From a phage, in sequence record PV467749.1: a stretch of DNA of 64,000 bases. One strand, 5' to 3'. The notes below the pieces were generated by a model that ran no database searches, had not been told where the DNA came from, and saw only the letters and a list, made by a program, of their open reading frames with translations. Shown one piece after another: positions 3,299-25,875 of this stretch; the first letter of the stretch is position 1; each line of letters opens with the position of its first letter. The translations under genes and the position numbers were made by a program.

Positions 3299-3558
3299 TG
3301 TTTATTCCATTCTTTTTTTTTGGCCTTGATGGTTTTATATTGGATTTGGTTTCTTAATGCTGATAAGTATCGTTGAATGAACAGATCTTGATAGTTTGTT
3401 CCAATGAATTTCATAAGATAAAGTTCACCGTTGATAACATCCACTTCAGGTGCACCATATAAGGCATTGTTTTTTCTAAGGGCATGGATTAAAGAGAATA
3501 GGGCAGTTTGATACTCAACTCCTGATAAAATCTTCATGTTTTGTGAGCAAATAATCAT
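3283..3558 (-). CDS. Family A small protein
   Basis: Track ORF 91 aa; IGTNYQDL. Confidence 0.5.
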   Translation of the reverse strand: MIICSQNMKILSGVEYQTALFSLIHALRKNNALYGAPEVDVINGELYLMKFIGTNYQDLFIQRYLSALRNQIQYKTIKAKKKEWNKQCDTD

Positions 3559-3772
3559 CTAGTTTATCCTGTATAACATTCGTTAATTGTTCGATATATT
3601 CTGTGCAAAACTTATCTTGATATTGAGTCCCCATAAAGTACAGCAACCATAGCTCATTAACTTTAGCTCGCATTTGGTTCCATGTAAGGCTGGGGTCATC
3701 GTAGACTATCCTTGCTATAGGGGTTAGTTTACGGACTATAGTTTCATATTCATCTAGTGTTAAGTGTTTCAT
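3515..3772 (-). CDS. Family A small protein
   Basis: Track ORF 85 aa; MGTQYQDK. Confidence 0.5.
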   Translation of the reverse strand: MKHLTLDEYETIVRKLTPIARIVYDDPSLTWNQMRAKVNELWLLYFMGTQYQDKFCTEYIEQLTNVIQDKLDDYLLTKHEDFIRS

Positions 3773-3987
3773 TTACATTTGTCCCTTATTAGATCAGTGA
3801 GGGCAACTATGTGTGCAACAACATACTCTTCCTGAAAGTTCGTCCCCAGTACAGCCATCATGCGTATATCGGTGGTGTTTATCCTGTGTTCCCTTACACA
3901 TAAACCTTCTGTGTGAGGAAGTGTAAAATATTTGTTTATTGCAGCAACGATAATTTTATTCTTCTCGGAGTTACTTAAATGTTTCAT
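3769..3987 (-). CDS. Family A small protein
   Basis: Track ORF 72 aa; LGTNFQEE. Confidence 0.5.
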   Translation of the reverse strand: MKHLSNSEKNKIIVAAINKYFTLPHTEGLCVREHRINTTDIRMMAVLGTNFQEEYVVAHIVALTDLIRDKCK

Positions 3988-4196
3988 AGTTTACTCCTGA
4001 TATAATTCTGAAGTGCAATTAAGTATTCCCCTACATAATACACCTGAAAGTCTGTATCAAGGAATGCACCCATAAGTAAATCTTTTTCTAATACCCTTGA
4101 TAAGTTAAGGTCTGCATTTGAAAGGTATATAAGTAAGATTTCACCCTGTGCGGAATTGAAACGTTTCTTATATTCTTCTGGTGTTAAAAAAATCAT
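3984..4196 (-). CDS. Family A small protein
   Basis: Track ORF 70 aa; LDTDFQVY. Confidence 0.5.
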   Translation of the reverse strand: MIFLTPEEYKKRFNSAQGEILLIYLSNADLNLSRVLEKDLLMGAFLDTDFQVYYVGEYLIALQNYIRSKL

Positions 4197-4408
4197 AATT
4201 TGCTCCTGATATATTTCTCAAGAGATGACAAATACTTTTCCTCATAATACTTCTGATAGTCTGTTCCTAAGAATGCACCCAAAAGTATTTCATTTTCCAA
4301 TACCTCGGCTAAGTTTAAATCAGAAGTCTCTTCGTATATTATGAGGATTTCAAGTTGTCTGGCAGCGATGCGTTCAGTATATTGATATGAGTTTTCTATA
4401 ATAATCAT
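4193..4408 (-). CDS. Family A small protein
   Basis: Track ORF 71 aa; LGTDYQKY; close paralog of the 3984 copy. Confidence 0.5.
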   Translation of the reverse strand: MIIIENSYQYTERIAARQLEILIIYEETSDLNLAEVLENEILLGAFLGTDYQKYYEEKYLSSLEKYIRSKL

Positions 4409-4614
4409 AATTTACTCTTTATATCTTGAATTAAAAATCGAATCCATTCTTCAACATAATCTTCCTGATGGTTTGTGTTCAGTACAGCCAACATGCGGAT
4501 CTCTGCTCTTGCAACTTCAATTTCAGTTTTAGGAAGGTCTTTGCTGATATCCACCATTAAGTCCATGTATTTCAAGATAAGACCGTATGATTGGGTTCGT
4601 GTTATAGTTTTCAT
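4405..4614 (-). CDS. Family A small protein
   Basis: Track ORF 69 aa; LNTNHQED. Confidence 0.5.
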   Translation of the reverse strand: MKTITRTQSYGLILKYMDLMVDISKDLPKTEIEVARAEIRMLAVLNTNHQEDYVEEWIRFLIQDIKSKL

Positions 4615-4811
4615 TGTTTCCTCGTGGACAATATTTTATTTTTCAATGTATCCATATATTGAATCACCCATCTTTCCTGATAGTTAGTTCCCAAAGTAAT
4701 CAAAAGGTATAACTCCATTCGTTCTACGTGTGTGTCTGTATTATAAATCTTTGTGAAGTTTTTACGTAACAGTTCTTGATAATCTTCTTTATTTAAAATA
4801 CGCATTTTCAT
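4611..4811 (-). CDS. Family A small protein
   Basis: Track ORF 66 aa; LGTNYQER. Confidence 0.5.
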   Translation of the reverse strand: MKMRILNKEDYQELLRKNFTKIYNTDTHVERMELYLLITLGTNYQERWVIQYMDTLKNKILSTRKQ

Positions 4812-5005
4812 AGTCTACCTTTTATGTCCCTTCGTAATTCTTGTAAGTATAGTTCGATATACTTTTCTTGATAGTTAGTTCCTATGAAAAGTTTCATAAC
4901 CAATTCACGCTTATATGCAATACCACGGATATGTGACATATGTAGGATATATGCCATGTTGGATATGAGTGTGTGGTTGTGCTCTTCTTGAGTTAAAATA
5001 CGCAT
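4808..5005 (-). CDS. Family A small protein (first gene of array)
   Basis: Track ORF 65 aa; IGTNYQEK; preceded on minus strand by TTGACT-N16-TATATT and GGAG RBS (~5012-5075). Confidence 0.5.
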   Translation of the reverse strand: MRILTQEEHNHTLISNMAYILHMSHIRGIAYKRELVMKLFIGTNYQEKYIELYLQELRRDIKGRL

Positions 5006-5075: not shown

Positions 5076-5254
5076 AGTAATACCCCTTTATCGAAGTCGC
5101 TAAGGTTACCCGCCCTTTAGCCCCCTACGCATTTTGCCATAGTCCAATCCCTTTTTATTCATAAAAGTCAAGGGATTACCTATGCATTTTTTTAACGCTG
5201 AAGTTTAAAAATGCCTTGACTTTTTTATGATTCAGTACTAAATCCTTTTACGCA

Positions 5255-5464
5255 TTAATCCTTCGTTACGCTTACGATTATCTGTGTATCCCCATAGTCC
5301 TGCCATACTTCCACGCCAGCCGTCGCCCTGGTTAGTCGTGCTGTCATCTGCTTAATGGTCTTAGGCTTTAGTGGAACCTGTTGCAGTACTGTACGCATAG
5401 CACTATCGACGTTATCATGTACGCCTGCAATAGTGCCTAGGACGCTGTATACTGTATAGAACAT
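5255..5464 (-). CDS. Hypothetical protein
   Basis: Track ORF 69 aa; GGAGGG RBS before ATG; GC-rich hairpin AGGCCGC/GCGGCCT upstream at ~5496-5516. Confidence 0.45.
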   Translation of the reverse strand: MFYTVYSVLGTIAGVHDNVDSAMRTVLQQVPLKPKTIKQMTARLTRATAGVEVWQDYGDTQIIVSVTKD

Positions 5465-5532
5465 ATGTATGCCCTCCTGATATAGTTAAGGCCGCTACAA
5501 GGCGGCCTATGATGTTTGGTGATGTGTAACGC

Positions 5533-5934
5533 TTACAGTCCTAAGATAGTGCGTGCTTCGTTACGTTCCGTACACAGCTGCATGATGTGAGCAAGTAAGT
5601 CCTTGCTAATGTATCCGGTGTTCATAGCTTCACGAATAGATACATCATAAGCACCGAACCCAGTGCGAACGATACGCACATCATTCAGGTTAGTATTATA
5701 GATACCGCCGAGATCAACGGCTTCGAATACTACATCAACAGAATATTCATTGTTGCCATCGTGGAAGTTTTCCAGTGCAATAGTATTGGAAACCGCCCAA
5801 CGTTTGCAGTTTCCAATGATGCGGCACTGTTCCGGTTGGATAGTGCCATTACTTACAGCGTACTCCAGTGCATCTTTACCAAAAGTCCGAGCCAGTACTA
5901 AAACGTCAGCGAAGGAAGTGATTGAGAAGGTCAT
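5533..5934 (-). CDS. Hypothetical protein
   Basis: Track ORF trimmed to MTFSITSF behind AAGGAG RBS; upstream track residues translate the promoter/hairpin. Confidence 0.55.
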   Translation of the reverse strand: MTFSITSFADVLVLARTFGKDALEYAVSNGTIQPEQCRIIGNCKRWAVSNTIALENFHDGNNEYSVDVVFEAVDLGGIYNTNLNDVRIVRTGFGAYDVSIREAMNTGYISKDLLAHIMQLCTERNEARTILGL

Positions 5935-6023
5935 GATAAAACTCCTTAATTTAGGAGGGAGAACCATTTCCCCCTCTCTATGTAAAACATTATACATGAA
6001 TCTAAGTACTATGCAAGTACTTT

Positions 6024-6356
6024 TTACATTTTGATACCTGGATTCAGGTAGCGGTGAGATCCATACTCTGGATCGGTTTCGGTCCAGTACTGTAAATCGA
6101 TAGTACCTTTCGCGTTAATCTTGTCTACCAGCTTATTCATCTTAGCGTATACTACATCAGCATCGATGCGTTTAAAGCCAGTGGCTTTAGTGAAGTAGTA
6201 GTGATTTGCTTCACTATCATTCAGGATGTACCGAGAACCGTTTGCCGTTTGTGCGATAATGATTGAGTATTCTACGTTACGGTCGAGGCCGTCGATGAAT
6301 ACAGAGGAAACATTAGTACGGATGAATGCTTTAACGATAGCGATTGAAGTAGTCAT
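6024..6356 (-). CDS. Hypothetical protein
   Basis: Track ORF 110 aa. Confidence 0.5.
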   Translation of the reverse strand: MTTSIAIVKAFIRTNVSSVFIDGLDRNVEYSIIIAQTANGSRYILNDSEANHYYFTKATGFKRIDADVVYAKMNKLVDKINAKGTIDLQYWTETDPEYGSHRYLNPGIKM

Positions 6357-6557
6357 TTTGAATCTCCTAACTTTGTGGGCCGTCGCACCATTGCCGCCCT
6401 ACGAGATACATTATCGCAGTACTGATATACTTTGTCAATACTTTTTTATTAATAGTTTTCACCCCACCAGCAGATAGTTACTCACCGTTATTAACTATAT
6501 ATTTTGGATACACCTATGCACCCTGTGGGCTAGTTTTTGTCTATGCGTATATAATAG

Positions 6558-6590
6558 CAAAGGGACTGACCGGAGTCAATCCCTTTTTTT
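6558..6590 (-). terminator. Rho-independent terminator (UCCG loop) with embedded -35
   Basis: AAAGGGACTGAC-CGGA-GTCAATCCC flanked by A-run and T-run; on minus the stem carries TTGACT followed by TATTAT. Confidence 0.55.
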
Positions 6591-6601
6591 ATTCTTTTTT
6601 G

Positions 6602-6802
6602 TTAGATGATTCTCCAATCATCAACGATCATGGTAAGATACCGAACCAGTGATTCGAGTGATTCGTGTTCTCGATAGTCTGCCGCTCCACCAGCGGTACA
6701 AGTACAGCCGATTAAGCCGTTTTGTAGTTCCTGGATCTTTACGTCGATCTGGTTGGCTTTAGCTTCTTTCAGTACTGCAACCAGGGCGATAGCGATAGAC
6801 AT
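6602..6802 (-). CDS. Hypothetical protein
   Basis: Track ORF 66 aa; upstream promoter/leader hairpin module. Confidence 0.45.
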   Translation of the reverse strand: MSIAIALVAVLKEAKANQIDVKIQELQNGLIGCTCTAGGAADYREHESLESLVRYLTMIVDDWRII

Positions 6803-6892
6803 AATGTTTTACTCCAAACTATTGGCGGGAGAACTATTCCCCCGCTCTATGTAAAACATTATACATTACTGGTTAGTACTGTCAAATAGTTT

Positions 6893-7150
6893 TTATGAAA
6901 TATCTTCGATGTAGTCGGCCCATTTCATTTTTTCAGTACTGTCAATGGCGACCGGATTATTTGGATCAAACCATTCACCATCACCGCAATACATACCCAC
7001 GGCTACGGTTTTATAGCCATCCTGGGCAGTACACCACGACATTGCACGATAGATATGGCCTTTAACTGGTTGCAGTACTGGTAACGTTTTATGGTCTTCT
7101 ACGTAGGCCATAGCTTGTGGATTTACCCGATATTGTGTGAACTGATCCAT
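6893..7150 (-). CDS. Hypothetical protein
   Basis: Track ORF 85 aa. Confidence 0.5.
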   Translation of the reverse strand: MDQFTQYRVNPQAMAYVEDHKTLPVLQPVKGHIYRAMSWCTAQDGYKTVAVGMYCGDGEWFDPNNPVAIDSTEKMKWADYIEDIS

Positions 7151-7226
7151 TATGTTTCCCCTTGTAGTTAGTAAAGTTATTACATCAGTACTATCAAGCT
7201 ATGTCAATAGTACTGAAATAAAACTT

Positions 7227-7451
7227 TTAGATTAGATTATTGAGGCCGTCAATGGTAGACTCACCTTCTTCTTTCTCCCATTGTCGGTAGTACTTCCATG
7301 CTTCATGATAGGTGGCGATTAGTTCATCTTTTTGATCCTGGTTACATGCCAGTACTGAATCACGGTGAGCGGTGTTATAGATAGAATCGAATGATTTCTT
7401 CTCTTCTGCCAGGTTAGCTACTTCCCGCATCAGTTCATCAAAGTTAGCCAT
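7227..7451 (-). CDS. Hypothetical protein
   Basis: Track ORF 74 aa; AAGGAG RBS; promoter TTGCAT-17-TATAAT plus leader hairpin at 7470-7526. Confidence 0.55.
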   Translation of the reverse strand: MANFDELMREVANLAEEKKSFDSIYNTAHRDSVLACNQDQKDELIATYHEAWKYYRQWEKEEGESTIDGLNNLI

Positions 7452-7469
7452 TTTATTACTCCTTTTAGT

Positions 7470-7526
7470 GGGGGAGGATATCTCCCCCTATGCAAAACAT
7501 TATACTTTGTTTTAGTTATTATGCAA
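7470..7526 (-). promoter_or_regulatory. Early-type promoter plus 5' leader hairpin (representative of ~30 copies)
   Basis: Minus strand: TTGCAT-17nt-TATAAT, gttttgcata, hairpin GGGGGAG/CTCCCCC, then AAGGAG RBS. Confidence 0.6.
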
Positions 7527-7782
7527 GTACTTTTTTCATATAAACATTAAATTCTACACCGCCGTAACCTTCCACGATGATATGTTTTGCGTTATCACGT
7601 TTGCACATAGTGAAACCGTTGTTGATGTGTTCTGAATTTTCCAGGGCGACATCACCGATAGCGGCACATACAGCACTAATAACAGTATTCCGCAAAGTAC
7701 TGGTATCATTGGCGGTCATAGTAGTTTGCAGTACTACGTTGTCGTATACGTGTGCATTGATAGTGATTTCGATAGTGTTCAT
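7519..7782 (-). CDS. Hypothetical protein
   Basis: Track ORF trimmed to MNTIEITINA; promoter/leader module at 7801-7862. Confidence 0.5.
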   Translation of the reverse strand: MNTIEITINAHVYDNVVLQTTMTANDTSTLRNTVISAVCAAIGDVALENSEHINNGFTMCKRDNAKHIIVEGYGGVEFNVYMKKVLA

Positions 7783-7800
7783 GTTGTATCTCCTGGACTT

Positions 7801-7862
7801 GAGGGGAAACCATTTCCCCCTCTCGATATAAAACATTATACGTTAATCTAACTACAATGCAA
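7801..7862 (-). promoter_or_regulatory. Early-type promoter plus 5' leader hairpin
   Basis: Minus strand: TTGCAT-16nt-TATAAT then hairpin GAGGGG/CCCCTC; plus-strand signature gatataaaacattatacg. Confidence 0.6.
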
Positions 7863-7869
7863 GTACTTT

Positions 7870-8061
7870 TTAAATTTTATTTCCGATATAGTCCGGCATG
7901 TTCTTTTCAGTCATACGCTTTGCTAATGTCTGCATATGGCTTATAGCGTTCAAGGTGTCTTCCTCCAGGGATGAATCGAGATAATCAGGATCATTCTTCA
8001 CCTTGCAATGATTATGATAGCGTAGTACTGCCAGTACTTTTTTAACTTCTTCAACTGTCAT
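7870..8061 (-). CDS. Hypothetical protein
   Basis: Track ORF 63 aa. Confidence 0.45.
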   Translation of the reverse strand: MTVEEVKKVLAVLRYHNHCKVKNDPDYLDSSLEEDTLNAISHMQTLAKRMTEKNMPDYIGNKI

Positions 8062-8330
8062 AATAAGTACTCCACTTCGTTAGCTTTCAGGTTAGTATCA
8101 ATCATCAATGGTTTTTTGTAGTTCACAAAACGATTAGTTTTTTCGATAGCAAATCCCATATAATCCAGCTTACTAACAGTACATTCATTCTTAAAAACTT
8201 CTTTCGCTGCATCGATGGCTGATTGCATGGATAACCGACCATCTAAATTAATGTTTCCAAATGATCCACCAGCAGAAGTAGGATTACCGTTCATATCTTT
8301 AATGATCATAGTAGCGGAGTAGCTGGACAT
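8058..8330 (-). CDS. Hypothetical protein
   Basis: Track ORF 90 aa; start overlaps stop of 7870..8061 gene. Confidence 0.5.
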   Translation of the reverse strand: MSSYSATMIIKDMNGNPTSAGGSFGNINLDGRLSMQSAIDAAKEVFKNECTVSKLDYMGFAIEKTNRFVNYKKPLMIDTNLKANEVEYLL

Positions 8331-8417
8331 AATTTTGTTTCCTTTTATTGGTGGGGAGAACTATTCTCCCCTTGATGTAAACTATTATACAGTACTGATA
8401 TACTTTGTCAAATACTT

Positions 8418-8825
8418 TTATTCGCCCATATAGATTAGATTATCATCGCCTACATAGGGATCGCAAACGTTGATTTCTTCGCAGTACTTAGTGAATATAT
8501 CATCATAGTGACCGATATCACGATCCCAAAAACCAGTGCCGTGACCTTCGCGAGTAAGAAAGAGATCATGACCTGCATGACTATAAGTATAATCAGGATT
8601 ATGGTGTTTTTGTACTGTTTCCATATCTTCACCATGTACAGCAAGGAAACGTGAACATGCAATCACTGCCGCTTGATGGGCTTGCTCTGATAATTCATAA
8701 TCTTCCAGGTATTCGCCGTTCTCATTGTGTACTGTACTGAATTGCATAGCTTCAATGTAACCAGCGACCATTGCAGCATGATTTTTATCGTTGGCGATGG
8801 ACCGAGCTTGATTAGTAGTAGTCAT
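8418..8825 (-). CDS. Hypothetical protein (His/Asp-rich)
   Basis: Track ORF 135 aa. Confidence 0.5.
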   Translation of the reverse strand: MTTTNQARSIANDKNHAAMVAGYIEAMQFSTVHNENGEYLEDYELSEQAHQAAVIACSRFLAVHGEDMETVQKHHNPDYTYSHAGHDLFLTREGHGTGFWDRDIGHYDDIFTKYCEEINVCDPYVGDDNLIYMGE

Positions 8826-8908
8826 GATTTTATTCCTTTTAGTATCGGGGAGAACTATTCTCCCCTTGATGTAAACTATTATACAGTACTGGTATACTTT
8901 GTCAATAC

Positions 8909-18963: not shown

Positions 18964-18994
18964 ACACAAAAAAGCCCACCGTTTAAGGTGGGCT
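18964..18994 (-). terminator. Rho-independent terminator, 3' of 19016..19498
   Basis: Minus: AGCCCACC-ttaaac-GGTGGGCT followed by TTTTTTGTGTTT. Confidence 0.7.
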
Positions 18995-19015
18995 AGTGAT
19001 TCAGTACTTTAATTG

Positions 19016-19498
19016 TTATGCTTCAACTTTGCGATGAGCTTCGATCCATTCCTCGCGAGTCATACCACTGGAGTTAATCGCGTCCAGTACTACCGCAATA
19101 CAGTTACCACGCACCGGAATCAGATATTCTTCCCCGTTGTCCAGTACTACCGCTACGCGTTCCTGAATCCATTTTTTGGCTTTTACTTCTGGCTTGTCTT
19201 CCCCATACTTAACCGCCAGGGCTTTTTGTGCCATCTCTGTAACTACTTCCAGATCCAATCCAACTACTGCCGCCTGAATACTTTCGATTGTTGCTTGTAG
19301 TTCTGCTTCACGGGCCGCCTTTGCCGCTTCAATTTCTGCCGCTTTATTTGCTTGTAGTTCTTTCGCAGTACTGTACGCGATGTTAAAATTATTGCGTACC
19401 GCTTTCATGGTATCGTTATCCAGTTCAGCCAGGATCTCAGCCGCTACGTTAGTTTCATTTGCTACCAGTGCTTTGATGAATGATTTTACATTAGCCAT
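19016..19498 (-). CDS. Hypothetical protein (Ala/Glu-rich helical N-half)
   Basis: Track ORF trimmed to MANVKSF; terminators flank both ends. Confidence 0.55.
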   Translation of the reverse strand: MANVKSFIKALVANETNVAAEILAELDNDTMKAVRNNFNIAYSTAKELQANKAAEIEAAKAAREAELQATIESIQAAVVGLDLEVVTEMAQKALAVKYGEDKPEVKAKKWIQERVAVVLDNGEEYLIPVRGNCIAVVLDAINSSGMTREEWIEAHRKVEA

Positions 19499-19699
19499 TT
19501 TATAAATCCTCAATTAAAGTTTAGTTTACGTTTATTAGTGTATCAAAGTTTTCTCGACGTGTCCAGTTTTTCGTTCGACTTACTGGCGGTCTACTTAGTG
19601 CTCCCCGTCTTGATGTAATACATTCTACGCTTTTCTGCGGTAATGTCAACTACTTTCTTAAAACTATTTTCAAAGTATCTCAGTACTACGATACTACAA

Positions 19700-19726
19700 A
19701 AACAAAAAAGCCCACCAGGTGGGCTA
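19700..19726 (-). terminator. Rho-independent terminator, 3' of 19732..19962
   Basis: Minus: GCCCAC-ctg-GTGGGC followed by TTTTTTGTTTTT. Confidence 0.65.
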
Positions 19727-19731
19727 TGTAC

Positions 19732-19962
19732 TTAATCAGTGAGTAAAATATTAAACACTTTACCATTTAACGTTATTGGTGCACTGCTACCAGGCTCAAG
19801 ATCCGTTAATATACCTGCAATCGCTTTATCATTGGCGACCTTTCCAGTGTCCAACAGTACTACAGTACTGATAAGATTAACGCTCGTTTCAATATCATAA
19901 TGCACGGCGTTAAGTAGTTGTGTAGTACTGCTTTCGTTAAGTAAAACAATTCGCTTAGTCAT
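19732..19962 (-). CDS. Hypothetical protein
   Basis: Track ORF 76 aa; terminator immediately 3' at 19700-19726. Confidence 0.5.
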   Translation of the reverse strand: MTKRIVLLNESSTTQLLNAVHYDIETSVNLISTVVLLDTGKVANDKAIAGILTDLEPGSSAPITLNGKVFNILLTD

Positions 19963-19983
19963 GATGTTACCCCGTAGTATCTA

Positions 19984-20283
19984 TCAACGGCAATTAATAA
20001 CGCCGGTATGCGTTACTTTCTCAGTATCCATTACAGTGACCGAACCGCGTTTAGTACTGGCATCATAATAAATTGTTGTGCTACCGTTTTCGTCTTCTTC
20101 ATGGAACGGGCCGTTTTTAAATGCTTCCGGCTGGATCTCTAAATCCTTTAATACAATCTCGCCAGTACTTTCATCGGTCATTGCAACAGTGCACTGAATG
20201 AATTTTTCACTACTTACATCTAATGACGCATTAACAGCGAAAGAGGAAACAGATAAAGCCAGGGCGATGATTGTAATTTTCAT
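19984..20283 (-). CDS. Secreted/periplasmic protein candidate
   Basis: Trimmed to MKITIIALALSVSSFAVNA, a signal-peptide-like N-terminus. Confidence 0.5.
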   Translation of the reverse strand: MKITIIALALSVSSFAVNASLDVSSEKFIQCTVAMTDESTGEIVLKDLEIQPEAFKNGPFHEEDENGSTTIYYDASTKRGSVTVMDTEKVTHTGVINCR

Positions 20284-20389
20284 TTGATTATCCTTAGTTA
20301 CCAGGGGAACCGCTCCCCTATGCAAAACATTATACGCGTTTAAAAACTAATTGCAAGTATTTTAATAAAAAGTATTTGAAAAATAATTG

Positions 20390-20418
20390 TTGACAACTGC
20401 ATCCAGTACTGGCATAAT
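20390..20418 (+). promoter_or_regulatory. Plus-strand early-type promoter opposing flanking genes
   Basis: TTGACA-17nt-CATAAT then tactacatcaagacg; downstream CCCACCGGGTGC and a hairpin with U-rich tail at ~20498-20532. Confidence 0.5.
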
Positions 20419-20524
20419 TACTACATCAAGACGAAACAGTCACTAACCCACCGGGTGCCGAGATCCGTCTATTAAATGATTCAGTACTGAAAAAGTAACG
20501 GGGAGTTATTATCTCCCCGCGTTG

Positions 20525-20746
20525 TTATTTTGTAAGGTATAAACAGAAGTCGCCTTTATTTGCTACGCCGCCAGTGTAACGCGATGAATAGTTAGAAACG
20601 TCCTGGACTTCTGCTATTACCAGGGTATCATCATTCAATTCGTCGCAGAAGCAAACGGCTGGATCTTGTACGCCGATTTTGTCGGCATGTTCCCGCATAG
20701 ATTTAACCAGTGCTTCCAGTTGGGAAAGAGTAGTGATATTAGCCAT
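20525..20746 (-). CDS. Hypothetical protein
   Basis: Track ORF trimmed to MANITTLSQ. Confidence 0.5.
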   Translation of the reverse strand: MANITTLSQLEALVKSMREHADKIGVQDPAVCFCDELNDDTLVIAEVQDVSNYSSRYTGGVANKGDFCLYLTK

Positions 20747-20832
20747 TTTATTTTCCTCATTACCAGGGAGAACCATTTCTCCCTTTGATGTAAACCATTA
20801 TACAGTACTGAAAACTAATTGCAAGTACTTTT

Positions 20833-21093
20833 TCAATATTGTTTGTCGTCGTCTTCCTCGATGAATTGACCGACGAAATGATCTACTTTCGCTTTGAGGC
20901 TTTTATAATCTTCTTCTACTTCCTTTAAACGTTCCTGGTAGTATTCCAATGCTTCAAGATACGCCGCCTCAGCAGTTTTTGCACGCATGGCTAAATTCAT
21001 GCCACGCGTTTCATCAAATAGCCAATAACCATCGGTGCACTGGCTAATAGATAATGTCTTGCTTAGTGCTGTATAGCTAATTACTTTACTCAT
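20833..21093 (-). CDS. Hypothetical protein
   Basis: Track ORF 86 aa. Confidence 0.5.
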   Translation of the reverse strand: MSKVISYTALSKTLSISQCTDGYWLFDETRGMNLAMRAKTAEAAYLEALEYYQERLKEVEEDYKSLKAKVDHFVGQFIEEDDDKQY

Positions 21094-21150
21094 TAGATAA
21101 CCCTCAGTAAAGGCGGGAACTATTACCCGCCATTATCTCAGTACTGAATA

Positions 21151-21390
21151 TTACATTCCAACCATTGCAGCACGGATCGCAGTAGTGCTATATTTGAATC
21201 CGTCCGGCGTTGTAGTAGTACCGTTGGCTTTTAATCTGCGGTACATACATTCCGCAGCAATATCTTTAGTTCTACTTTGTGCGATGCAACTTTGTGCAAG
21301 CCGATACAATGACTCACCGTTATTAATCCAAAGGCTTACATTCCAATGAGTTTTGTTTTTGTGTCCGTTGTAAGTTTTAGTACTAGCCAT
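21151..21390 (-). CDS. Hypothetical protein (paralog of 23196..23435)
   Basis: Shares KNKTHWNVSLWINN...PDGFKYSTTAIRAAMVGM. Confidence 0.55.
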   Translation of the reverse strand: MASTKTYNGHKNKTHWNVSLWINNGESLYRLAQSCIAQSRTKDIAAECMYRRLKANGTTTTPDGFKYSTTAIRAAMVGM

Positions 21391-21480
21391 TTTTAAATCC
21401 TCGTTTGAGCGGGGAACCACTCCCCGCCTTGATGTAAAGTATTATACGCTTTTAAACTTAGTTTACAAGTACTTTTTAAA

Positions 21481-22092
21481 TTAATATTCGATTGATTCCA
21501 CTACGCCATCAATAACATTGAATTGATATTCGTTACCCTCAATCAGTGCAGTAATGTTTTCAGTAGTGAATTGATCCTCATATGCATTCTCTAAATCACG
21601 GTACAACTTACGAGATAATTCACGGATCGCATCAGTCAGTAAGTTTTCCAGGTCATCAGCAAGTGCCGCTTGTTTTACAGTTAAATCAGTGTAGCGAGTA
21701 TCAACGCAACCGCTTACCGTGTTTTCGTGTGCGTAGCGAGAGTGTGAACGTTCTACACTCATTGCCAAATCATCTTCATTCAACAAGTGACGGATTGAAC
21801 GATATTTCGTTAACGCCTTAACCTTGCGTAAAAACTTCTCAGCGTCAACGTGGTTAGTACTGATTGATGCACCGTCACCTTGCGACCAAAAACCACTGTA
21901 TTGCAATTCAGCTTCATCTATGCCGTATTCTGGTAGTACTGTTTCTTTATAGTACTCGATAACGCCCTCAGCAAAGAAATTATCCTCACATGAACGCTCA
22001 CGATCCCGAACCAGTTCGATAGCCGCCGTTTTTTGTTCTGCGTTCAGTTCAGAAAAAGCCATAACAAAAGTAGTAGTAGTGATAGTTTTCAT
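21481..22092 (-). CDS. Hypothetical acidic protein
   Basis: Track ORF 203 aa; contains GFWSQGDGASI; family not recognised. Confidence 0.55.
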   Translation of the reverse strand: MKTITTTTFVMAFSELNAEQKTAAIELVRDRERSCEDNFFAEGVIEYYKETVLPEYGIDEAELQYSGFWSQGDGASISTNHVDAEKFLRKVKALTKYRSIRHLLNEDDLAMSVERSHSRYAHENTVSGCVDTRYTDLTVKQAALADDLENLLTDAIRELSRKLYRDLENAYEDQFTTENITALIEGNEYQFNVIDGVVESIEY

Positions 22093-22316
22093 TTTGTAAC
22101 CCTCATTCAGTAGTTGATGTAAGTATTATACGCTTTTAAAAACATTTGTCAAACTATTTTATCAGGGGAGTTTTTCGTGTGCCTTACTCCTGGGCTACTT
22201 AACGGGAAGTTACTTATTTCGTTCCCCGTCCTGATGTAAAACATTATACGCTTATTGAGATAGTTTGCAAGTACTTTTTAAAAATAGTTTTCAGTACTGA
22301 ATAGTAAAAAAAAGTA

Positions 22317-22345
22317 TTGACAGCATTATCAAGTACTGGCATAAT
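22317..22345 (+). promoter_or_regulatory. Plus-strand early-type promoter
   Basis: TTGACA-17nt-CATAAT; transcript would contain CCCACCGGGTGC and downstream GCACCCTATGGG inverted partner. Confidence 0.5.
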
Positions 22346-22522
22346 ATACCCCATGACAACAGCTAACCCACCGGGTGCACAATTGTAACTATACTAAACT
22401 AATTTTTCTATAGATACACTCCCGCACCCTATGGGCTACGGCTTATCTGCCAATGAATACATTATGCCAGTACTGACAAAATAAGTCAATACCGGCAATT
22501 GTAAATTTTTCAAAAAATATGA

Positions 22523-22753
22523 TTATACTGCAATCGCGTCCAGGCTGTAATAATAATAAGTGCCGTATTGGTGTACTTTATTACCTTTTATTTCAGTACT
22601 GAATGAATCCGAACGATTTGCATATGATGTTAATTTAAAGTACTTTGATTTGCTGATACGTTGCCATACACCACAGATCCGCTGTAAGTAAGTAGTTTTA
22701 TTCGTGGTCGTATCTTTTACGGTTTTAACTTCAGTCATATACATATTAGTCAT
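22523..22753 (-). CDS. Hypothetical protein
   Basis: Track ORF 76 aa. Confidence 0.45.
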   Translation of the reverse strand: MTNMYMTEVKTVKDTTTNKTTYLQRICGVWQRISKSKYFKLTSYANRSDSFSTEIKGNKVHQYGTYYYYSLDAIAV

Positions 22754-22840
22754 TTTTATTACTCCAGGTTATAGGCGGGAAGAGTTCCCGCTCTCGATGT
22801 AAAACATTATACGCCTTTAAACATAGTTTGCAAGTACTTT

Positions 22841-23107
22841 TTATTCAAGTACTGCAATCTTTTTAGTACGGTACACGGTCACGCGGTTGCCCTTTCGGTC
22901 GAGCTTTATTTCTACCACTCGACGCGATACACTATCGGGACTTTTTAAGGCCGCTAACCAGTACTGTAATGATCTGGCGGTACTACGCTTTACAATGGCC
23001 CAACGTTTACCACGTTCCGATTGTACGCCCATATCTTTAAACGTTGCCCCGTCCTGGCGTGCGGCGATCCGAGCTTGTTCACGCGTCGCAAAATACTTAA
23101 TATTCAT
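22841..23107 (-). CDS. Hypothetical protein (paralog of 10859..11263)
   Basis: Trimmed to MNIKYFATREQARIAARQDGATFKDMG. Confidence 0.55.
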   Translation of the reverse strand: MNIKYFATREQARIAARQDGATFKDMGVQSERGKRWAIVKRSTARSLQYWLAALKSPDSVSRRVVEIKLDRKGNRVTVYRTKKIAVLE

Positions 23108-23195
23108 GCTGTTGCCCTTATCGTTGGTGTATGAATAAAACACTATTATAAAGTACTATCCCCGTGCAATAGTACTTTAAATAAATTCTATTCTA

Positions 23196-23435
23196 TTACA
23201 TTCCAACCATTGCCGCACGGATCGCAGTAGTGCTATATTTGAATCCGTCCGGTGTTTTATCTTGTCCAGTCTGTTCTAAAAATAACATCATATGACGGGC
23301 CGCATCATTGCGATTAGTGCTATCGTTAATAAAGTCCTGGGCCAACCGGTATAATGATTCATCGTTATTAATCCAAAGGCTTACATTCCAATGAGTTTTG
23401 TTTTTGTGACCTAAGAACATTTTTGATTTAGCCAT
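23196..23435 (-). CDS. Hypothetical protein (paralog of 21151..21390)
   Basis: Trimmed to MAKSKMFLGHKNKTHWN. Confidence 0.55.
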   Translation of the reverse strand: MAKSKMFLGHKNKTHWNVSLWINNDESLYRLAQDFINDSTNRNDAARHMMLFLEQTGQDKTPDGFKYSTTAIRAAMVGM

Positions 23436-23528
23436 TTTTTTAATCCTCTTATATAGTGGGGAACTATTCCCCACCTGATGTAAAACATTATACGCTTTTA
23501 AACTTAGTTTGCAAGTACTTTATTAAAC

Positions 23529-23891
23529 TTATTTGTAAATTTTGCCACTTTCTACCCATACCAGGAAACGAGGCATATTATCCCATGCATCTTGCTTTAA
23601 GTTTAAGCCGTGCAATTCCTCAGTTGTTGCCATGCCTGGGACTGGTTTACTATACACCGAGAATTTTTCGCCCATGTACTGATAAACCATCGTCAAATCA
23701 CTGGCGATCATCTTATGGATCATCGCATCAAGCATCACGGTCGCGGCGTATTGTTCACGCTTAAGCGGCAGCATTTTAATCAGTTCGCGGTATGCGTCAA
23801 TGTGAGTTTTAACCGTTGCCGCCGGAAGATCTTTCATCTCGTCGCGGAAGTTAACCAGGTTAGCAATAATTTTGGTGATTTGAGTCGCCAT
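23529..23891 (-). CDS. Hypothetical protein
   Basis: Track ORF trimmed to MATQITKIIA behind RBS. Confidence 0.5.
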   Translation of the reverse strand: MATQITKIIANLVNFRDEMKDLPAATVKTHIDAYRELIKMLPLKREQYAATVMLDAMIHKMIASDLTMVYQYMGEKFSVYSKPVPGMATTEELHGLNLKQDAWDNMPRFLVWVESGKIYK

Positions 23892-24199
23892 CGTTTTAAT
23901 CTCTCTTAAAAGTGAGTTAGGAGCGTTTCCCCCGTCTCGATGTAAAACATTATACGCCTTTAAACATAGTTTACAAGTACTTTCTACAAATACTTTTAAA
24001 ATAGTTTTCTTTCTATATAGGGAAACTATCATTCAGTACTGAATCAACCAAATCACTACTACACCCCGTAAAACGGCCTCAATCGCATTCTAACGCATTA
24101 TTACACCTAAGCTATACATTTGCACCATTCTAATCATTCCAGTGCGTTACGGGCCGTTTAAACGCGTTAAATTATTTTCAATTATTTTGTTTTTAGGTA

Positions 24200-24227
24200 T
24201 TGACTCAGTACTAAAAAAGCGTATAAT
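24200..24227 (+). promoter_or_regulatory. Plus-strand early-type promoter in ORF-free region
   Basis: TTGACT-16nt-TATAAT then tactacatagacgcgagaaag. Confidence 0.5.
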
Positions 24228-24415
24228 TACTACATAGACGCGAGAAAGCGGATACCCCAGGGGGTGCGGAATTGTGCCCAAAATTCAAGATATAAAAAAA
24301 GGATACACTCCCGCACCCTAGCAGGTAAACGCACTTTCTCAGTACTGAAATATAGTACCATAGTCCGGCCCAGGATAGCAAGCAAATTAATTAAAACTTT
24401 TTTGCTTCCAGGGTA

Positions 24416-24443
24416 TTGCTTTATTTTTTCAGTACTGTATAAT
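24416..24443 (+). promoter_or_regulatory. Plus-strand promoter candidate
   Basis: TTGCTT-16nt-TATAAT then agttccatcaagtcgagaaag and CCCACCGGGTGC. Confidence 0.45.
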
Positions 24444-24540
24444 AGTTCCATCAAGTCGAGAAAGACTCAAGCCCACCGGGTGCATAGTTACGCCCAAAAT
24501 TCAGTACTGAAAAAATTTTTAAAAATATCCGTCCAGGTCG

Positions 24541-24569
24541 TTGACATTGCCCCCAGTTTATAAGATAAT
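24541..24569 (+). promoter_or_regulatory. Plus-strand promoter candidate
   Basis: TTGACA-17nt-GATAAT. Confidence 0.4.
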
Positions 24570-24666
24570 GATTCCAGATTCAGAAAAATCTAACACCAGA
24601 TACTGCGGGGAAACTATCCCCACGCGGTAGGGGAACTATTGGAAAAAACAAAATAAAATTTTGATT

Positions 24667-24794
24667 TAGCCGTCTATACTTCCAGACGTGTAACCATCTA
24701 GCCGTTTAGCCGTCCAAACGTCTAGCCATCCAGCCATCCAGAAATCTAGCCGTTTAGCCGTCTAGATGGATAGCCATCTTTACTTCCAGACTTC
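24667..24794. repeat. Tandem degenerate 8-bp repeat array (consensus TAGCCRTC, ~16 units)
   Basis: Strict 8-bp phase: tagccgtc tatacttc cagacgtg taaccatc tagccgtt tagccgtc caaacgtc tagccatc cagccatc cagaaatc tagccgtt tagccgtc tagatgga tagccatc ... Confidence 0.6.
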
Positions 24795-25875
24795 TGGAGG
24801 GCTAGACATATCTACGCCCAAAATCCATCCAGGGTAACTACACCCAAAATCCGTCAGTACTATACCATAGATCTATCTTTTGAAAGGGAGTATTCAGTAC
24901 TGCCATCATAGCCCTCACTATGTTACCCTAGGAGGATGAAGACTATCATGTAGTACTGAATACTGTTAGAGGGAATCCACCAGCTTGTGCTGGTGGCATA
25001 ATGCTTTAGATTAAAATCAGTACTGACACCATTCTGTTAATATCAGTACTGTTATTACGATTTTCATATGAGGTTCAAAAAGATGTACCACCACAGGAGG
25101 AACTATCTTTTCTGTACTGTCTCACGACAGGAGGTAGAGTAAATGAATTGTTCGCAGCAACTCATCTCTCTATGTAGAACATTATACAGTACTGAATCAT
25201 AATGTCAATAGCTTTCTTTCATTATTCAGTACTGATATTCTTGAGAACTACCCGACTACAAACATCATTATATCCCACAAATCATAAACGTCCCAACGTA
25301 AATTTCAACTTTCGAAGAACCAACTTTTATTTCATAGGTACTCCAAAATTTTTAGGATCGAGATTTAGGATGGAGTACTAACCAACTTTTTGCTGGAGCC
25401 TCAAGGGGTAATTGAATTTTACCCCGAAGGGTAAAAGGGTAATTGAAATTAAGGTGAAAGTAATAATTCAGTACTAATCATTGCGTGATTACTTTTGATT
25501 ACATTTGATGTAATTTGCAAAATGGAAAAGGAGCTTGGAAACTACAAAGTACGGCAGACTTCCTCTGCCTACTTAGTGACATATCGACACCTTCAGTACT
25601 GAATACTTTTAGGGCAGTACTGAATCCTTCCCTAGCATTCTTGAGTAATCTTGTCTATAATAATCAGTACTGAATCATATATAATCATTCTGTGATTCTA
25701 CGGTGCTCATATAAATGTTTATATATGATTACTTATGACTACATATGATTACGGGGTTTAGCCTGGGGAGAATCCTAGTGATCGCATTTGTCCAGGCTGA
25801 ATTTTAACAATTCTTCTAATTGTTAAAGCCTGTCCAATGCTTTCCCTGCGGAGCTTCCCCTGTCTATATGTTGAA

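What the first reader, a model, noticed from the sequence alone, without database searches (positions are those of the whole stretch)
20390..24600. Plus-strand early-type promoters with no downstream ORF and a conserved CCCACCGGGTGC element
At 20390, 22317, 24200, 24416 and 24541 there are TTGAC(A/T)-N16/17-(T/C)ATAAT promoters on the plus strand, opposite to all flanking genes, each followed by the same acatcaagacgag-like initial transcribed sequence. No plausible ORF lies downstream. The transcripts would carry CCCACCGGGTGC, whose inverted partner GCACCC(T)ATGGG occurs nearby; the same element in the opposite orientation sits in long leaders of minus-strand genes (6525, 9265, 12540, 14530, 16225). 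The copy at 20390 ends at a hairpin with a U-rich tail about 110 nt downstream. These could be small noncoding or antisense RNAs.
Basis: inference. Interest (0 to 1): 0.65.

Follow-up and report, generated by a model that had tools for sequence, protein, structure and literature searches.

The report
Promoter-coupled early RNA motif, jumbo phage
The plus-strand "orphan" promoters are real and belong to a family of about ten cassettes in the terminal repeat of a Rak2-like jumbo coliphage; each joins a strong host-type promoter to a conserved two-hairpin RNA that matches no known RNA family and whose function is unknown.

Summary
The window comes from an Asteriusvirus (121Q/PBECO4/G17-like) jumbo coliphage. 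By homology to phage fEgEco12, its ~20.5 kb direct terminal repeat (DTR) spans about 5103-25573.

The motif CCCAYNGGGTGC is real: 12 matches against 0.6 expected. It forms the core of a ~50-nt RNA module that starts 4-8 nt after the inferred start site of a sigma-70 promoter. The module has three parts:
- P1, a hairpin with a strongly covarying stem and a conserved A-rich loop.
- P2, RCCC-N3-4-GGGU.
- A conserved tail, UGC-nnAnn-U-GUAUCUAU.

A covariance model finds 10 copies in the window, all inside the DTR. It finds about 10 per DTR in Klebsiella, Pectobacterium, Cronobacter, Yersinia and Serratia relatives. It finds none elsewhere in a 352-kb relative, none in Rfam and no credible copy in bacterial genomes.

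Copies occur in three contexts:
- Leaders at operon starts (5 copies).
- Convergent pairs (2).
- Lone outward units. One, at 20390-20532, ends at a terminator and predicts a ~108-nt RNA, an arrangement conserved in four genera.

The 24541 promoter is not a member of the family.

The sRNA reading is partly supported. The antisense reading is not. My best guess, which is inferred, is an abundant immediate-early RNA that serves as a ligand for a conserved protein. A nut/put-like cis role is the main rival.

The parts
20390..20474 (+). Cassette, lone and outward-facing. Promoter TTGACA(20390-20395)-17-CATAAT(20413-20418). Inferred start A20425. P1 is GAC(20430-32), loop GAAACA, GUC(20439-41). P2 is A-CCC(20446-49), ACC, GGG-U(20453-56). 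Tail runs to 20474.
   Evidence: CM hit 20422-20474 at 55.5 bits and 53.6 bits.
20499..20532 (+). Bidirectional intrinsic terminator, CGGGGAG-uuauuau-CUCCCCG plus a U-rich tail. It ends the ~108-nt RNA from 20425 and, on the minus strand, gene 20525-20776.
   Evidence: called on both strands; fold.
22317..22394 (+). Cassette, outward half of a convergent pair. Promoter 22317-22345. Short form without a clear P1. Motif 22367-22378.
   Evidence: CM 22345-22394.
22408..22489 (-). Cassette, inward half of the convergent pair. Promoter TTGACT(22489-22484)-17-CATAAT(22466-22461). P1 is UGGC-agauaa-GCCG. Motif 22435-22424. The two transcripts would overlap by about 100 nt.
   Evidence: CM 22408-22459. 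The long hairpin fold has z -3.9.
24200..24283 (+). Cassette, outward. Promoter 24200-24227. P1 is CGC-gagaaa-GCG. Motif CCCCAGGGGGTGC at 24255-24267.
   Evidence: CM 24231-24283.
24297..24381 (-). Degenerate convergent partner of the 24200 cassette. Motif CCTGCTAGGGTGC at 24325-24313, weak promoter. Its GGGUGC/GUAUCC helix plus U7 scores as terminator-like (24319-24300).
   Evidence: Not detected by either CM.
24416..24499 (+). Cassette, outward. Promoter TTGCTT-16-TATAAT at 24416-24443. P1 is AGUC-gagaaa-GACU. Motif 24472-24483. Followed in tandem by the 24541 promoter.
   Evidence: CM 24447-24499.
24541..24591 (+). NOT a family member. Outward promoter TTGACA-17-GATAAT with a P1-like hairpin AGAUU-cagaaa-AAUCU (24576-24591) but no P2 or tail. 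It reads into the TAGCCGTC repeat array towards the physical genome end.
   Evidence: No CM hit.
16205..16294 (-). Cassette, inward leader. Terminator hairpin 16294-16267 with the -35 (16287-16282) in its 5' arm. -10 TATTAT at 16264-16259. P1 is UGAG-agauag-CUCA. Motif 16232-16221. Followed by a class-A gene promoter at 16165-16138.
   Evidence: CM 64.8-66.1 bits.
14510..14643 (-). Cassette, inward leader. Upstream terminator 14643-14618. Promoter 14594-14566. P1 is GACG-agaa-CGUC. Motif 14537-14526. It is the leader of the DksA/TraR zinc-finger gene 14012-14269.
   Evidence: CM.
12524..12608 (-). Cassette, inward leader, short form. Terminator-embedded promoter 12608-12573. Motif 12551-12540.
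   Evidence: CM.
9254..9343 (-). Cassette, inward leader. Terminator-embedded promoter 9343-9308. P1 is UGAG-agauaa-CUCA. Motif 9281-9270. Class-A promoter 9213-9186 lies downstream.
   Evidence: CM.
6502..6586 (-). Cassette, inward leader, short form. Terminator-embedded promoter 6586-6551. Motif 6529-6518. It is the last copy before the inner DTR boundary.
   Evidence: CM.
5103..25573 (.). Inferred direct terminal repeat that contains every copy. fEgEco12 position 1 maps to window 25573, and its DTR end (20,993) maps to about window 5103. The window minus strand is the direction from the left genome end inward.
   Evidence: 97% identity alignments. fEgEco12 termini were determined by PhageTerm and restriction digests (PMC13070987).

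Best explanation
WHAT IT IS (well supported, about 0.85).
The feature is a clade-wide family of about 10 cassettes per terminal repeat, so about 20 per packaged genome. Each cassette is a strong host sigma-70 promoter fused to a ~50-nt structured RNA module at the very 5' end of the transcript. Most of these promoters have a 17-bp spacer and a TG-extended -10. The module has:
- P1: a 3-5 bp hairpin whose stem covaries freely, with a conserved A-rich loop (GAGAAA, GCGAAA, AGAACAA or AGAUAA).
- A 3-5 nt linker.
- P2: RCCC-N3-4-GGGU.
- An invariant UGC.
- The tail nnAnn-U-GUAUCUAU. The tail can instead pair with GGGUGC to form a G-U-rich helix (P3) that excludes P2.

HOW IT MOST LIKELY WORKS (inferred, about 0.4).
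Host RNA polymerase fires these promoters as soon as the repeat enters the cell. The module is the selected product: an abundant immediate-early RNA that is a sequence-specific ligand for one conserved partner, probably a host protein shared by Enterobacterales, or host RNA polymerase itself.
- Lone outward cassettes release it as a discrete ~100-108 nt terminated small RNA.
- Inward cassettes carry it as the 5' leader of operon transcripts.
- Convergent pairs make two mutually complementary RNAs.

Shown here: sequence, copy number, confinement to the repeat, RNA-type covariation, promoter and terminator anatomy, and conservation across genera.
Inferred: transcription, start sites, RNA ends, action in trans, and the existence and identity of a partner.
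For: - The motif is far above chance. 10 of 10 window copies have a promoter ending 21-28 nt upstream.
- P1 on the hand-structured alignment of 44 copies: the inner three pairs are paired in 44 of 44 sequences, with 3-4 Watson-Crick pair types each.
- On the CM alignments, 95-96% of cells are paired. The covariation score is 0.44-0.47, against 0.15-0.16 in shuffles (0 of 500 reach it) and at most 0.06 when partners are slid.
- Hairpin-finder control: 44 of 54 real sequences score at least 5, against a mean of 8.7 and a maximum of 17 in shuffles.
- The structure is strand-specific, as expected for RNA. The P1 outer pair is U-G in 9 sequences. The P2 closing pair is A-U in 26-30 and G-U in 26-28. 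Two copies in different genera carry a compensatory CCU..AGG in P2.
- P3 is 92% paired against 33-67% when slid.
- Conservation: BLAST finds the promoter plus module in Escherichia, Klebsiella, Salmonella, Erwinia, Yersinia, Pectobacterium, Cronobacter and Serratia jumbo phages. The CMs find 9-12 copies in each annotated DTR.
- Confinement: all 9 hits in the 352-kb EC22.5-2 genome fall within a 19-kb span. No window hit lies outside 6502-24499.
- For an RNA product rather than a gene-linked cis signal: about 40% of copies point away from the genes. Lone outward units have promoter, module and a same-strand terminator giving ~100-108 nt in the window, Muenster, CBB and fHe-Yen9-03. CBB, GAP32 and Yen9-03 even share the same terminator hairpin.
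- No host counterpart: the 12 hits in 596 Gb of bacterial genomes are scattered and none is in Enterobacterales. Only three register with the CM, at 16-23 bits.
- In the distantly related phage PA5oct, RNA-seq found two very abundant non-coding RNAs inside the DTR (PMC7318152). They are not homologous to this module.
Against: - No transcript data exist for any phage of this clade. Start sites, RNA ends and abundance are all inferred.
- About half of the copies sit co-directionally at operon starts, directly after terminators. That position suits a cis-acting leader equally well.
- Inward copies have no terminator before the next promoter, so no discrete small RNA is predicted from them unless the leader is processed.
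- In convergent pairs, each RNA would fold its module into a long hairpin with the partner's complement. That would mask a ligand site.
- P2 and the tail are almost invariant, so their structure rests on only two compensatory cases and on one-sided changes.
- No partner was identified. Pfam scans of 40 repeat-encoded ORFs found no RNA-binding, Hfq-, ProQ- or CsrA-like protein.
Confidence: 0.42

Rival explanations
1. Cis-acting promoter-proximal leader that works like lambda nut, HK022 put or an ops site. The nascent module, possibly together with a polymerase pause about 10 nt after P2, loads a factor onto the transcribing host RNA polymerase or modifies it directly. The polymerase then resists terminators or Rho, so transcripts from these promoters run through the many terminators of the repeat and into the promoter-less gene array beyond it.
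For: - The module is always at the 5' end of the transcript, 4-8 nt after the inferred start.
- Five of 10 window copies, and 5-6 per repeat in relatives, sit at operon starts immediately after intrinsic terminators, upstream of a second gene promoter.
- P1 behaves like boxB: the stem covaries and the purine-rich loop is conserved.
- In the alignment, GG, eight bases, then U and G (columns 52-53 and 62-63) fits the published consensus elemental pause G-11 G-10 ... Y-1 G+1. That comparison is from my own knowledge.
- The near-invariance of P2 and the tail suits a conserved partner such as RNA polymerase.
- Genes 146-5005 are tightly packed with no intergenic space for promoters.
Against: - About 40% of copies face away from all genes.
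- Lone outward copies keep a same-strand terminator at ~100 nt in four genera. That makes little sense if the module defeats terminators.
- Almost every gene in the repeat has its own promoter, so read-through is not needed there.
- There is no boxA-like (CGCUCUUA) or ops (GGCGGTAGnnTG) sequence in the module.
- Model R2 does not hit lambda nutL or nutR even with filters off.
- No N-, Q- or NusG-like domain was found in 40 repeat ORFs.
Confidence: 0.28
2. Primer or R-loop element of transcription-dependent replication origins, as at T4 oriF/oriG or ColE1. A promoter, a G cluster (GGGUGCGGAG) that nucleates an RNA-DNA hybrid, and an AT-rich unwinding stretch would together prime DNA synthesis. 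Convergent pairs would act like RNA I/RNA II.
For: - The promoters have no ORFs and work in either orientation.
- An invariant G-rich block is followed by AT-rich sequence.
- Convergent overlapping transcripts of ~100 nt occur near the genome end in every genus.
- The elements lie in the terminal repeat.
Against: - Ten origins in 20 kb is implausible.
- The conserved P1 loop and covarying stem have no role in this model.
- Lone copies end at terminators ~100 nt downstream.
- Most copies are directly followed by gene promoters.
- No origin-type features were examined or found next to the lone copies.
Confidence: 0.07
3. There is no RNA function. The module is the downstream part of a repeated promoter/terminator DNA cassette, comparable to the PeSL cassettes of T4-type phages. 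It would be kept similar by recombination among copies and by selection on promoter escape or strength, or it would be a DNA operator for a phage regulator.
For: - The repeat is built from repeated promoter and terminator cassettes flanking small ORFs.
- CCC-N3-GGG is palindromic.
- The start region resembles the purine-rich initial transcribed sequences of strong T5 promoters (my own knowledge).
Against: - The P1 stem shows about 20 different Watson-Crick combinations with the loop held constant. That is selection on pairing, not on sequence.
- The G-U pairs exist only on the transcribed-sense strand.
- P2 spacing varies between 3 and 4 nt, and its distance from the -10 varies between 21 and 28 nt. 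Both are poor fits for a duplex operator.
- Conservation extends to +50, beyond the promoter footprint.
- The module is conserved between genera whose flanking DNA no longer aligns.
Confidence: 0.1

Closest known systems
Lambda nut sites (boxA-boxB-boxC) and HK022 put RNAs
   Same: Both are promoter-proximal RNA elements in early phage transcripts made by host RNA polymerase. Both include a small hairpin with a covarying stem and a conserved purine-rich loop. In lambda nutR, boxB is followed by a small inverted repeat ACACC-UAU-GGUGU-AUG (sequence read), which resembles P2 and the tail in outline.
   Different: The module has no boxA. Its loops are 6-8 nt, not a GNRA-like pentaloop. The covariance model does not hit nutL or nutR. 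There are ten copies rather than two. About 40% face away from genes, and some are followed by their own terminator. No N-like protein was found. Similarity to put could not be tested because no put sequence was held.
Terminated bacterial and phage small-RNA genes, including multi-copy 'sibling' sRNAs
   Same: The 20390-20532 unit has a sigma-70 promoter, no ORF, a conserved 5' domain, an AU-rich spacer and a terminator hairpin with a U-rich tail, giving about 108 nt. The same layout is found in four genera.
   Different: Only 1-2 of the ~10 copies per repeat have this complete anatomy. The conserved part is structured rather than an open seed. No target or chaperone is known. There are about 20 copies per packaged genome.
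PeSL (promoter-early stem-loop) cassettes of T4-type phages (Arbiol et al. 2010, from my own knowledge)
   Same: Both are repeated sigma-70 promoter plus stem-loop cassettes that punctuate arrays of small early ORFs. Here the -35 is built into a terminator hairpin at 6586, 9343, 12608 and 16294.
   Different: PeSLs are described as DNA-level promoter/terminator modules. This family carries an additional transcribed two-hairpin module with RNA-type covariation. Sequence relatedness was not tested.
DTR-encoded non-coding RNAs of Pseudomonas jumbo phage PA5oct (PMC7318152)
   Same: PA5oct is a distant relative of the Rak2-like clade. Early genes lie in a long terminal repeat, and two ORF-less transcripts within it take 1-5% of phage reads.
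   Different: There is no sequence or structure similarity. Neither CM hits the PA5oct repeat, and the sequences are unrelated by eye. The PA5oct RNAs are 236 and 451 nt and single-copy.
RfaH ops element
   Same: Both are 12-nt elements in 5' leaders with GG at -11/-10 and U/G at -1/+1 of a consensus pause, and both can form a small hairpin.
   Different: The sequence is GGTGCGGAGATG-like, not GGCGGTAGnnTG, so the residues RfaH recognises are absent. Orientation relative to genes is mixed.

Membership tests
Any Rfam 15 family | Score at or above the family gathering threshold, or a credible sub-threshold match | tested here: not met
   No hit in the 64-kb window at gathering thresholds. At E<=5 over 4500-26000, four weak unrelated hits appear and none overlaps a module.
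tRNA / tmRNA | Cloverleaf or tmRNA detected by ARAGORN | tested here: not met
   0 genes in the window.
Terminated small-RNA gene | Sigma-70-type promoter with no ORF downstream | tested here: met
   Promoters score 10-11 of 12. No credible ORFs follow.
Terminated small-RNA gene | Intrinsic terminator on the same strand within a few hundred nt | tested here: inconclusive
   Met for 20390-20532 and for lone outward copies in Muenster, CBB and fHe-Yen9-03. Not met for the five inward copies, the pairs or the 24416 copy.
Terminated small-RNA gene | A discrete transcript is detected | not testable with these tools
   No transcriptome for this clade was found in the literature.
Lambda-type nut site | boxA consensus CGCUCUU(U)A next to the hairpin | tested here: not met
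   Absent from all aligned copies.
Lambda-type nut site | boxB: 5-bp stem with a GNRA-like pentaloop (GAAAA, GAAGA or GACAA) | tested here: not met
   P1 loops are 6-8 nt (GAGAAA, GCGAAA, AGAACAA, AGAUAA). R2 gives no hit at nutL or nutR with filters off.
Lambda-type nut site | An N-family antiterminator is encoded by the phage | tested here: inconclusive
   Pfam on 40 repeat ORFs found none. N proteins are small and divergent, and most of the genome lies outside the window.
Lambda-type nut site / put RNA | Lies in, and is co-directional with, the operon it controls | tested here: not met
   4 of 10 window copies, and about 40% in relatives, face away from all genes.
HK022 put RNA | Nascent two-stem-loop RNA that makes polymerase terminator-resistant without protein factors | not testable with these tools
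   Two hairpins are present. Activity needs in vitro transcription. No put sequence was compared.
RfaH ops | GGCGGTAGnnTG in the non-template strand of the leader | tested here: not met
   The consensus here is GGGTGC-nnAnn-TG.
Cis-antisense RNA / type I toxin-antitoxin | The transcript overlaps a protein-coding gene or a toxin ORF on the other strand | tested here: not met
   The 20425 RNA meets its terminator at 20499-20519, ahead of the gene whose stop codon is at 20525. The convergent pairs overlap only each other, and there are no ORFs between them.
PeSL-like promoter/stem-loop cassette | Repeated early promoter plus stem-loop flanking small ORFs in a variable region | tested here: met
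   Terminator hairpins containing the -35 occur at 6586, 9343, 12608 and 16294, alongside many repeated gene promoters. This describes the DNA setting, not the transcribed module.

The most novel reading that the evidence does not exclude
The module is a new kind of immediate-early phage RNA effector. It would be made from about 20 strong promoters per incoming genome, before any phage protein exists. It would either reprogram host RNA polymerase directly, in a protein-independent, put-like way that could drive long-range transcription of a 350-kb genome that encodes no polymerase of its own, or it would soak up a conserved enterobacterial protein such as an RNA chaperone, a ribonuclease or an immune sensor.
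Probability: 0.2. Interest if true: 0.8.

Novelty: new variant of a known kind. Interest (0 to 1): 0.6.

Why it matters
Rak2-like jumbo phages (Asteriusvirus, Alcyoneusvirus, Mimasvirus, Eneladusvirus and others) are being isolated and proposed for therapy. Their early programme is unknown, and most genes in the terminal repeat have no assigned function.

This analysis defines a conserved, multi-copy structured RNA with exact coordinates, a covariance model and three recurring genomic contexts. It should be among the first and most abundant products of infection. That turns [quoted passage not shown] into specific experiments: end mapping, pull-down, and in vitro pause and read-through assays.

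It also adds a candidate family to the short list of phage RNA motifs with real covariation support. For annotators, it shows that the ORF-less promoters in these repeats are not noise.

Tried and rejected
- Rfam at gathering and permissive thresholds: nothing.
- ARAGORN: nothing.
- A plain MAFFT alignment followed by RNAalifold saw only the invariant CCC/GGG pairs, because P1 length varies. I replaced it with an N-padded hand alignment and with covariance models.
- Extra helices: the tail does not pair consistently with the 5' end or with the P1 loop, and a scan of all column pairs found no further covarying helix.
- Mini-ORF reading of the tail (AUG-UAU-CUA-UAG): rejected. The start codon is not conserved and the GGAG lies too close to it.
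- CsrA-type GGA sites: present in only about half of the copies.
- CRISPR-repeat mimic: no resemblance to the E. coli I-E or I-F repeats as I recall them.
- Homology to the PA5oct DTR ncRNAs: none.
- Homology to lambda nut: none.
- Host origin: the bacterial-genome scan gave only chance-level hits. Metagenomic viral contigs carrying the exact pattern but no CM hit were also chance matches.
- Literature: no paper mentions the motif or any transcriptome for this clade. An Avs5 paper I checked concerns unrelated nucleus-forming phages.
- Pfam on 40 repeat ORFs found no RNA-binding or antitermination domain.
- I could not search the E. coli transcriptome for complements of the conserved 12-mer.

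Full report
SOURCE AND SETTING

The region 20300-24700 is 92-96% identical to Escherichia jumbo phages of the 121Q/PBECO4/G17 group (Asteriusvirus). These phages carry direct terminal repeats (DTRs) of about 21 kb. For fEgEco12 the ends were fixed by PhageTerm and restriction digests (PMC13070987). G17 and the Pectobacterium phage CBB show the same feature.

Aligning fEgEco12 to the window puts its first base at window 25573 and its repeat boundary at about 5103, at 97% identity. The inferred repeat is therefore window ~5103-25573. Within it, the minus strand runs from the left genome end inward.

Inside this span nearly every small minus-strand gene has its own promoter of the type TTG(C/T/A)AA-16-TATAAT. 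Strong intrinsic terminators divide the span into operons. A 1.8-kb non-coding stretch (24040-25870) contains the physical end.

THE OBSERVATION

All five plus-strand promoters exist at the stated coordinates. The 12-mer occurs 12 times with up to 2 mismatches, against 0.63 expected. Every true copy lies 21-28 nt downstream of a -10 hexamer. No credible plus-strand ORF follows any of them. The hairpin at 20499-20519 is called as a terminator on both strands.

Three corrections apply:
- The 24541 promoter has no motif.
- The "inverted partner" at 22424-22435 is a full second copy with its own promoter, converging on the 22317 copy. The 24200 copy has a decayed partner of the same kind.
- The shared initial transcribed sequence is mostly the 5' arm and loop of a hairpin.

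ANATOMY OF THE MODULE

I collected 54 copies from the window and from the repeats of Klebsiella phages Muenster and RaK2, Pectobacterium phage CBB, Cronobacter phage GAP32, Yersinia phage fHe-Yen9-03 and one uncultivated genome. They share one layout.

- Start. The base 7 nt after the -10 is the A of a conserved CAT, which I take as the inferred start.
- P1. After 3-8 nt comes a hairpin of 3-5 bp with about 20 different stem sequences (for example GAC/GUC, GGC/GCC, GAG/CUC, CCA/UGG, GGAG/CUCC, GGAA/UUCC, ACCG/CGGU). The loop stays A-rich: GAGAAA, GCGAAA, AGAACAA or AGAUAA. About eight copies are short forms with the A-rich stretch but no clear stem.
- Linker. A 3-5 nt linker follows (YURR).
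- P2. This is RCCC, 3-4 variable nt, then GGGU.
- Tail. An invariant GC is followed by nnAnn-U-GUAUCUAU.

STATISTICS

- Hand-structured alignment of 44 copies: the three inner P1 pairs are paired in 44 of 44 sequences, with 3-4 pair types each and 18-25 double-sided changes.
- Because I had fitted that alignment to hairpins, I ran a control. The same hairpin finder on shuffled upstream segments gives 8.7 of 54 at the threshold that 44 of 54 real sequences reach, with a maximum of 17 in 300 rounds.
- Covariance models built from 11 and then 56 copies gave alignments of 56 and 68 copies. These have 95-96% of cells paired and covariation scores of 0.47 and 0.44. Shuffles give 0.16 and 0.15, and slid registers give at most 0.06.
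- P2 is nearly invariant. Its closing pair alternates between A-U and G-U (26-30 versus 26-28). Two copies in different genera carry a compensatory CCU..AGG.
- The tail can pair with GGGUGC instead, forming helix P3. P3 is 92% paired against 33-67% when slid, but all changes are one-sided, so it remains a hypothesis.
- G-U pairs in P1, P2 and P3 would be mismatches on the other strand. The structure therefore belongs to the RNA, or the non-template strand, of the promoter's own direction.
- No further covarying helix was found.

DISTRIBUTION

BLAST with one cassette finds it, several times per genome, in Escherichia, Klebsiella, Salmonella, Erwinia, Yersinia, Pectobacterium, Cronobacter and Serratia jumbo phages. 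Where a terminal repeat is annotated, the best-scoring match lies inside it.

- The models find 10 copies in the window (6502-24499) and 9-12 in each of the Muenster, CBB and Yen9-03 repeats. They find none beyond the annotated repeat boundaries in those loci.
- A scan of the entire 352-kb EC22.5-2 genome gives 9 hits, all within 30.8-49.6 kb, the region homologous to the window's repeat.
- The Pseudomonas relative PA5oct has none.
- An exact-pattern scan of 596 Gb of bacterial genomes returned 12 scattered hits, none in Enterobacterales. That is about the chance expectation. Only three register with the model, at 16-23 bits, against 28-68 bits for real copies.
- Rfam has no matching family.
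- No paper mentions the motif.

THREE RECURRING CONTEXTS

(a) Inward leaders. Window copies: 6529, 9281, 12551, 14537, 16232.
- The promoter follows an intrinsic terminator. In four of the five, the -35 lies inside the terminator's 5' arm (AAAGGGAUUGACUCCGGUCAGUCCCUUU followed by GCUAUUAU).
- The module is followed after ~90 nt by an ordinary gene promoter.

(b) Lone outward units. Window copies: 20447, and also 24472, which is followed by the 24541 promoter rather than by a terminator.
- For 20447, the promoter, module, an AGUACUGAAAA spacer and a same-strand terminator predict a ~108-nt RNA.
- Muenster (~100 nt), CBB (~100-105 nt) and Yen9-03 (~105 nt) have the same arrangement.
- CBB, GAP32 and Yen9-03 share the same terminator hairpin.

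(c) Convergent pairs. Window pairs: 22367/22435 and 24255/24325.
- The motif starts are 68-70 nt apart.
- Such pairs occur near the left end in every genus.
- Each transcript would contain the complement of its partner and folds into a long hairpin.

Per repeat the tally is about 5-6 inward copies, 1-2 lone outward copies and 2-3 pairs.

MECHANISM

The following points are established:
- The module is under selection as a folded single strand.
- It is always attached to a promoter.
- It is independent of gene orientation.
- It is confined to the first DNA expressed.
- It is conserved far beyond its flanks.

The near-invariant loops and tail imply recognition by one conserved partner.

I favour, at about 0.4, the reading that the RNA itself is the product: an abundant immediate-early ligand or small RNA. 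The main reason is that complete promoter-module-terminator units facing away from genes are conserved in four genera.

The main rival, at about 0.28, is a cis-acting nut/put/ops-like leader. In its favour are the strict 5' position, the placement at operon starts, the boxB-like behaviour of P1, and a GG-N8-UG spacing after P2 that fits the consensus pause (from my own knowledge). Against it are the outward copies with terminators, the absence of boxA or ops sequence, the lack of a model hit on lambda nut, and the absence of an N-, Q- or NusG-like domain in 40 repeat ORFs.

Origin-primer and DNA-only cassette readings are less likely, for the reasons given under the rival explanations.

None of these can be settled without transcript and binding data, and none exist for this clade. 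In the distant relative PA5oct, RNA-seq did find two abundant ORF-less RNAs inside the repeat. That shows such products are plausible, but those RNAs are not homologous to this module.

VERDICT

The small-RNA interpretation is partly supported, and the antisense interpretation is not. The feature is a previously undescribed, well-supported RNA motif family of Rak2-like jumbo phages. Its function remains open.

Noticed in passing
whole window; densest 4000-32000: The palindrome AGTACT (often CAGTACTG) occurs 274 times against about 21 expected from base composition. There are none in 1-4000, 6-8 per kb in 4000-32000 and about 3 per kb beyond. It sits in the spacer of the module promoters (ccAGTACTggCATAAT), immediately upstream of the -35 of gene promoters (aAGTACTTGCAA), 10-25 nt after the module, and inside some terminator stems. 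It could be a binding site for a regulator or a selected or avoided enzyme site.
   Followed up: partly
window 6464, 6687, 8266, 10168, 13413, 14363, 14621, 18879, 24977 (minus strand); 18941, 24989 (plus strand): Chi (GCTGGTGG) occurs 11 times on the minus strand and 3 on the plus strand, against about 0.2-0.3 expected per strand. Nine of the minus-strand sites lie in the inferred repeat. That is the orientation that would be active against RecBCD entering from the right genome end. A palindromic double Chi (CCACCAGCttgtGCTGGTGG, 24977-24996) sits 0.6 kb from the left end.
   Followed up: partly
window 24040-25870: This 1.8-kb non-coding region contains the physical left end (about 25573). 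It holds about 12 tandem 8-mers TAGCCGTC/TAGCCATC at 24667-24765, and ATGATTACAT-type repeats at 25486-25509 and 25715-25752. The orphan 24541 promoter reads into it. It may relate to packaging or to DNA entry.
   Followed up: partly
window 6559-6586, 9316-9343, 12581-12608, 16267-16294 (minus strand): These intrinsic terminator hairpins have a 5' arm that contains the -35 hexamer of the next promoter, and a U tract that runs into the -10. This is a compact terminator-promoter overlap, and it is conserved in Klebsiella, Pectobacterium and Yersinia relatives.
   Followed up: partly
window 14012-14269, 10543-10797, 13592-13948, 21151-21420, 9355-9996 (minus strand): Early-region ORFs with Pfam matches: DksA/TraR C4 zinc finger (E 4e-9, directly downstream of the 14537 module), ParE-like toxin (6e-11), GNAT acetyltransferase (4e-9), DUF7249 (6e-13), and a weak protein-kinase match. 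The other ~35 ORFs scanned have no match above the curated thresholds.
   Followed up: partly
window 30570-50825 (plus strand): About 17 consecutive ORFs of 358-449 aa lie on the plus strand, apparently a paralogous family. They were not analysed.
   Followed up: no
window 146-5005 (minus strand): About 25 small ORFs (65-91 aa) are packed end to end with overlapping starts and stops and no intergenic promoters, just inside the repeat boundary. The first 4 kb contain no AGTACT at all.
   Followed up: no
window 18226-18254 (minus strand): A promoter of the same build as the module promoters (TTGACA-17-CATAAT with TG) and the same start sequence (AUCAAGACAAC) leads straight into a gene without the module. 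The promoter type and the module are therefore separable.
   Followed up: partly
window 16264-16406 (minus strand): Weak sub-threshold Rfam match to FuFi-1 (28 bits against a gathering score of 59.6, E 0.011), just upstream of the 16232 cassette. Probably chance.
   Followed up: no
L002 (Klebsiella phage Muenster) 18-29, minus strand: A promoter-less copy of the 12-mer (CCCACTGGGTGC) lies 17 nt from the PhageTerm-predicted left terminus. No equivalent was seen at the window's inferred end.
   Followed up: no
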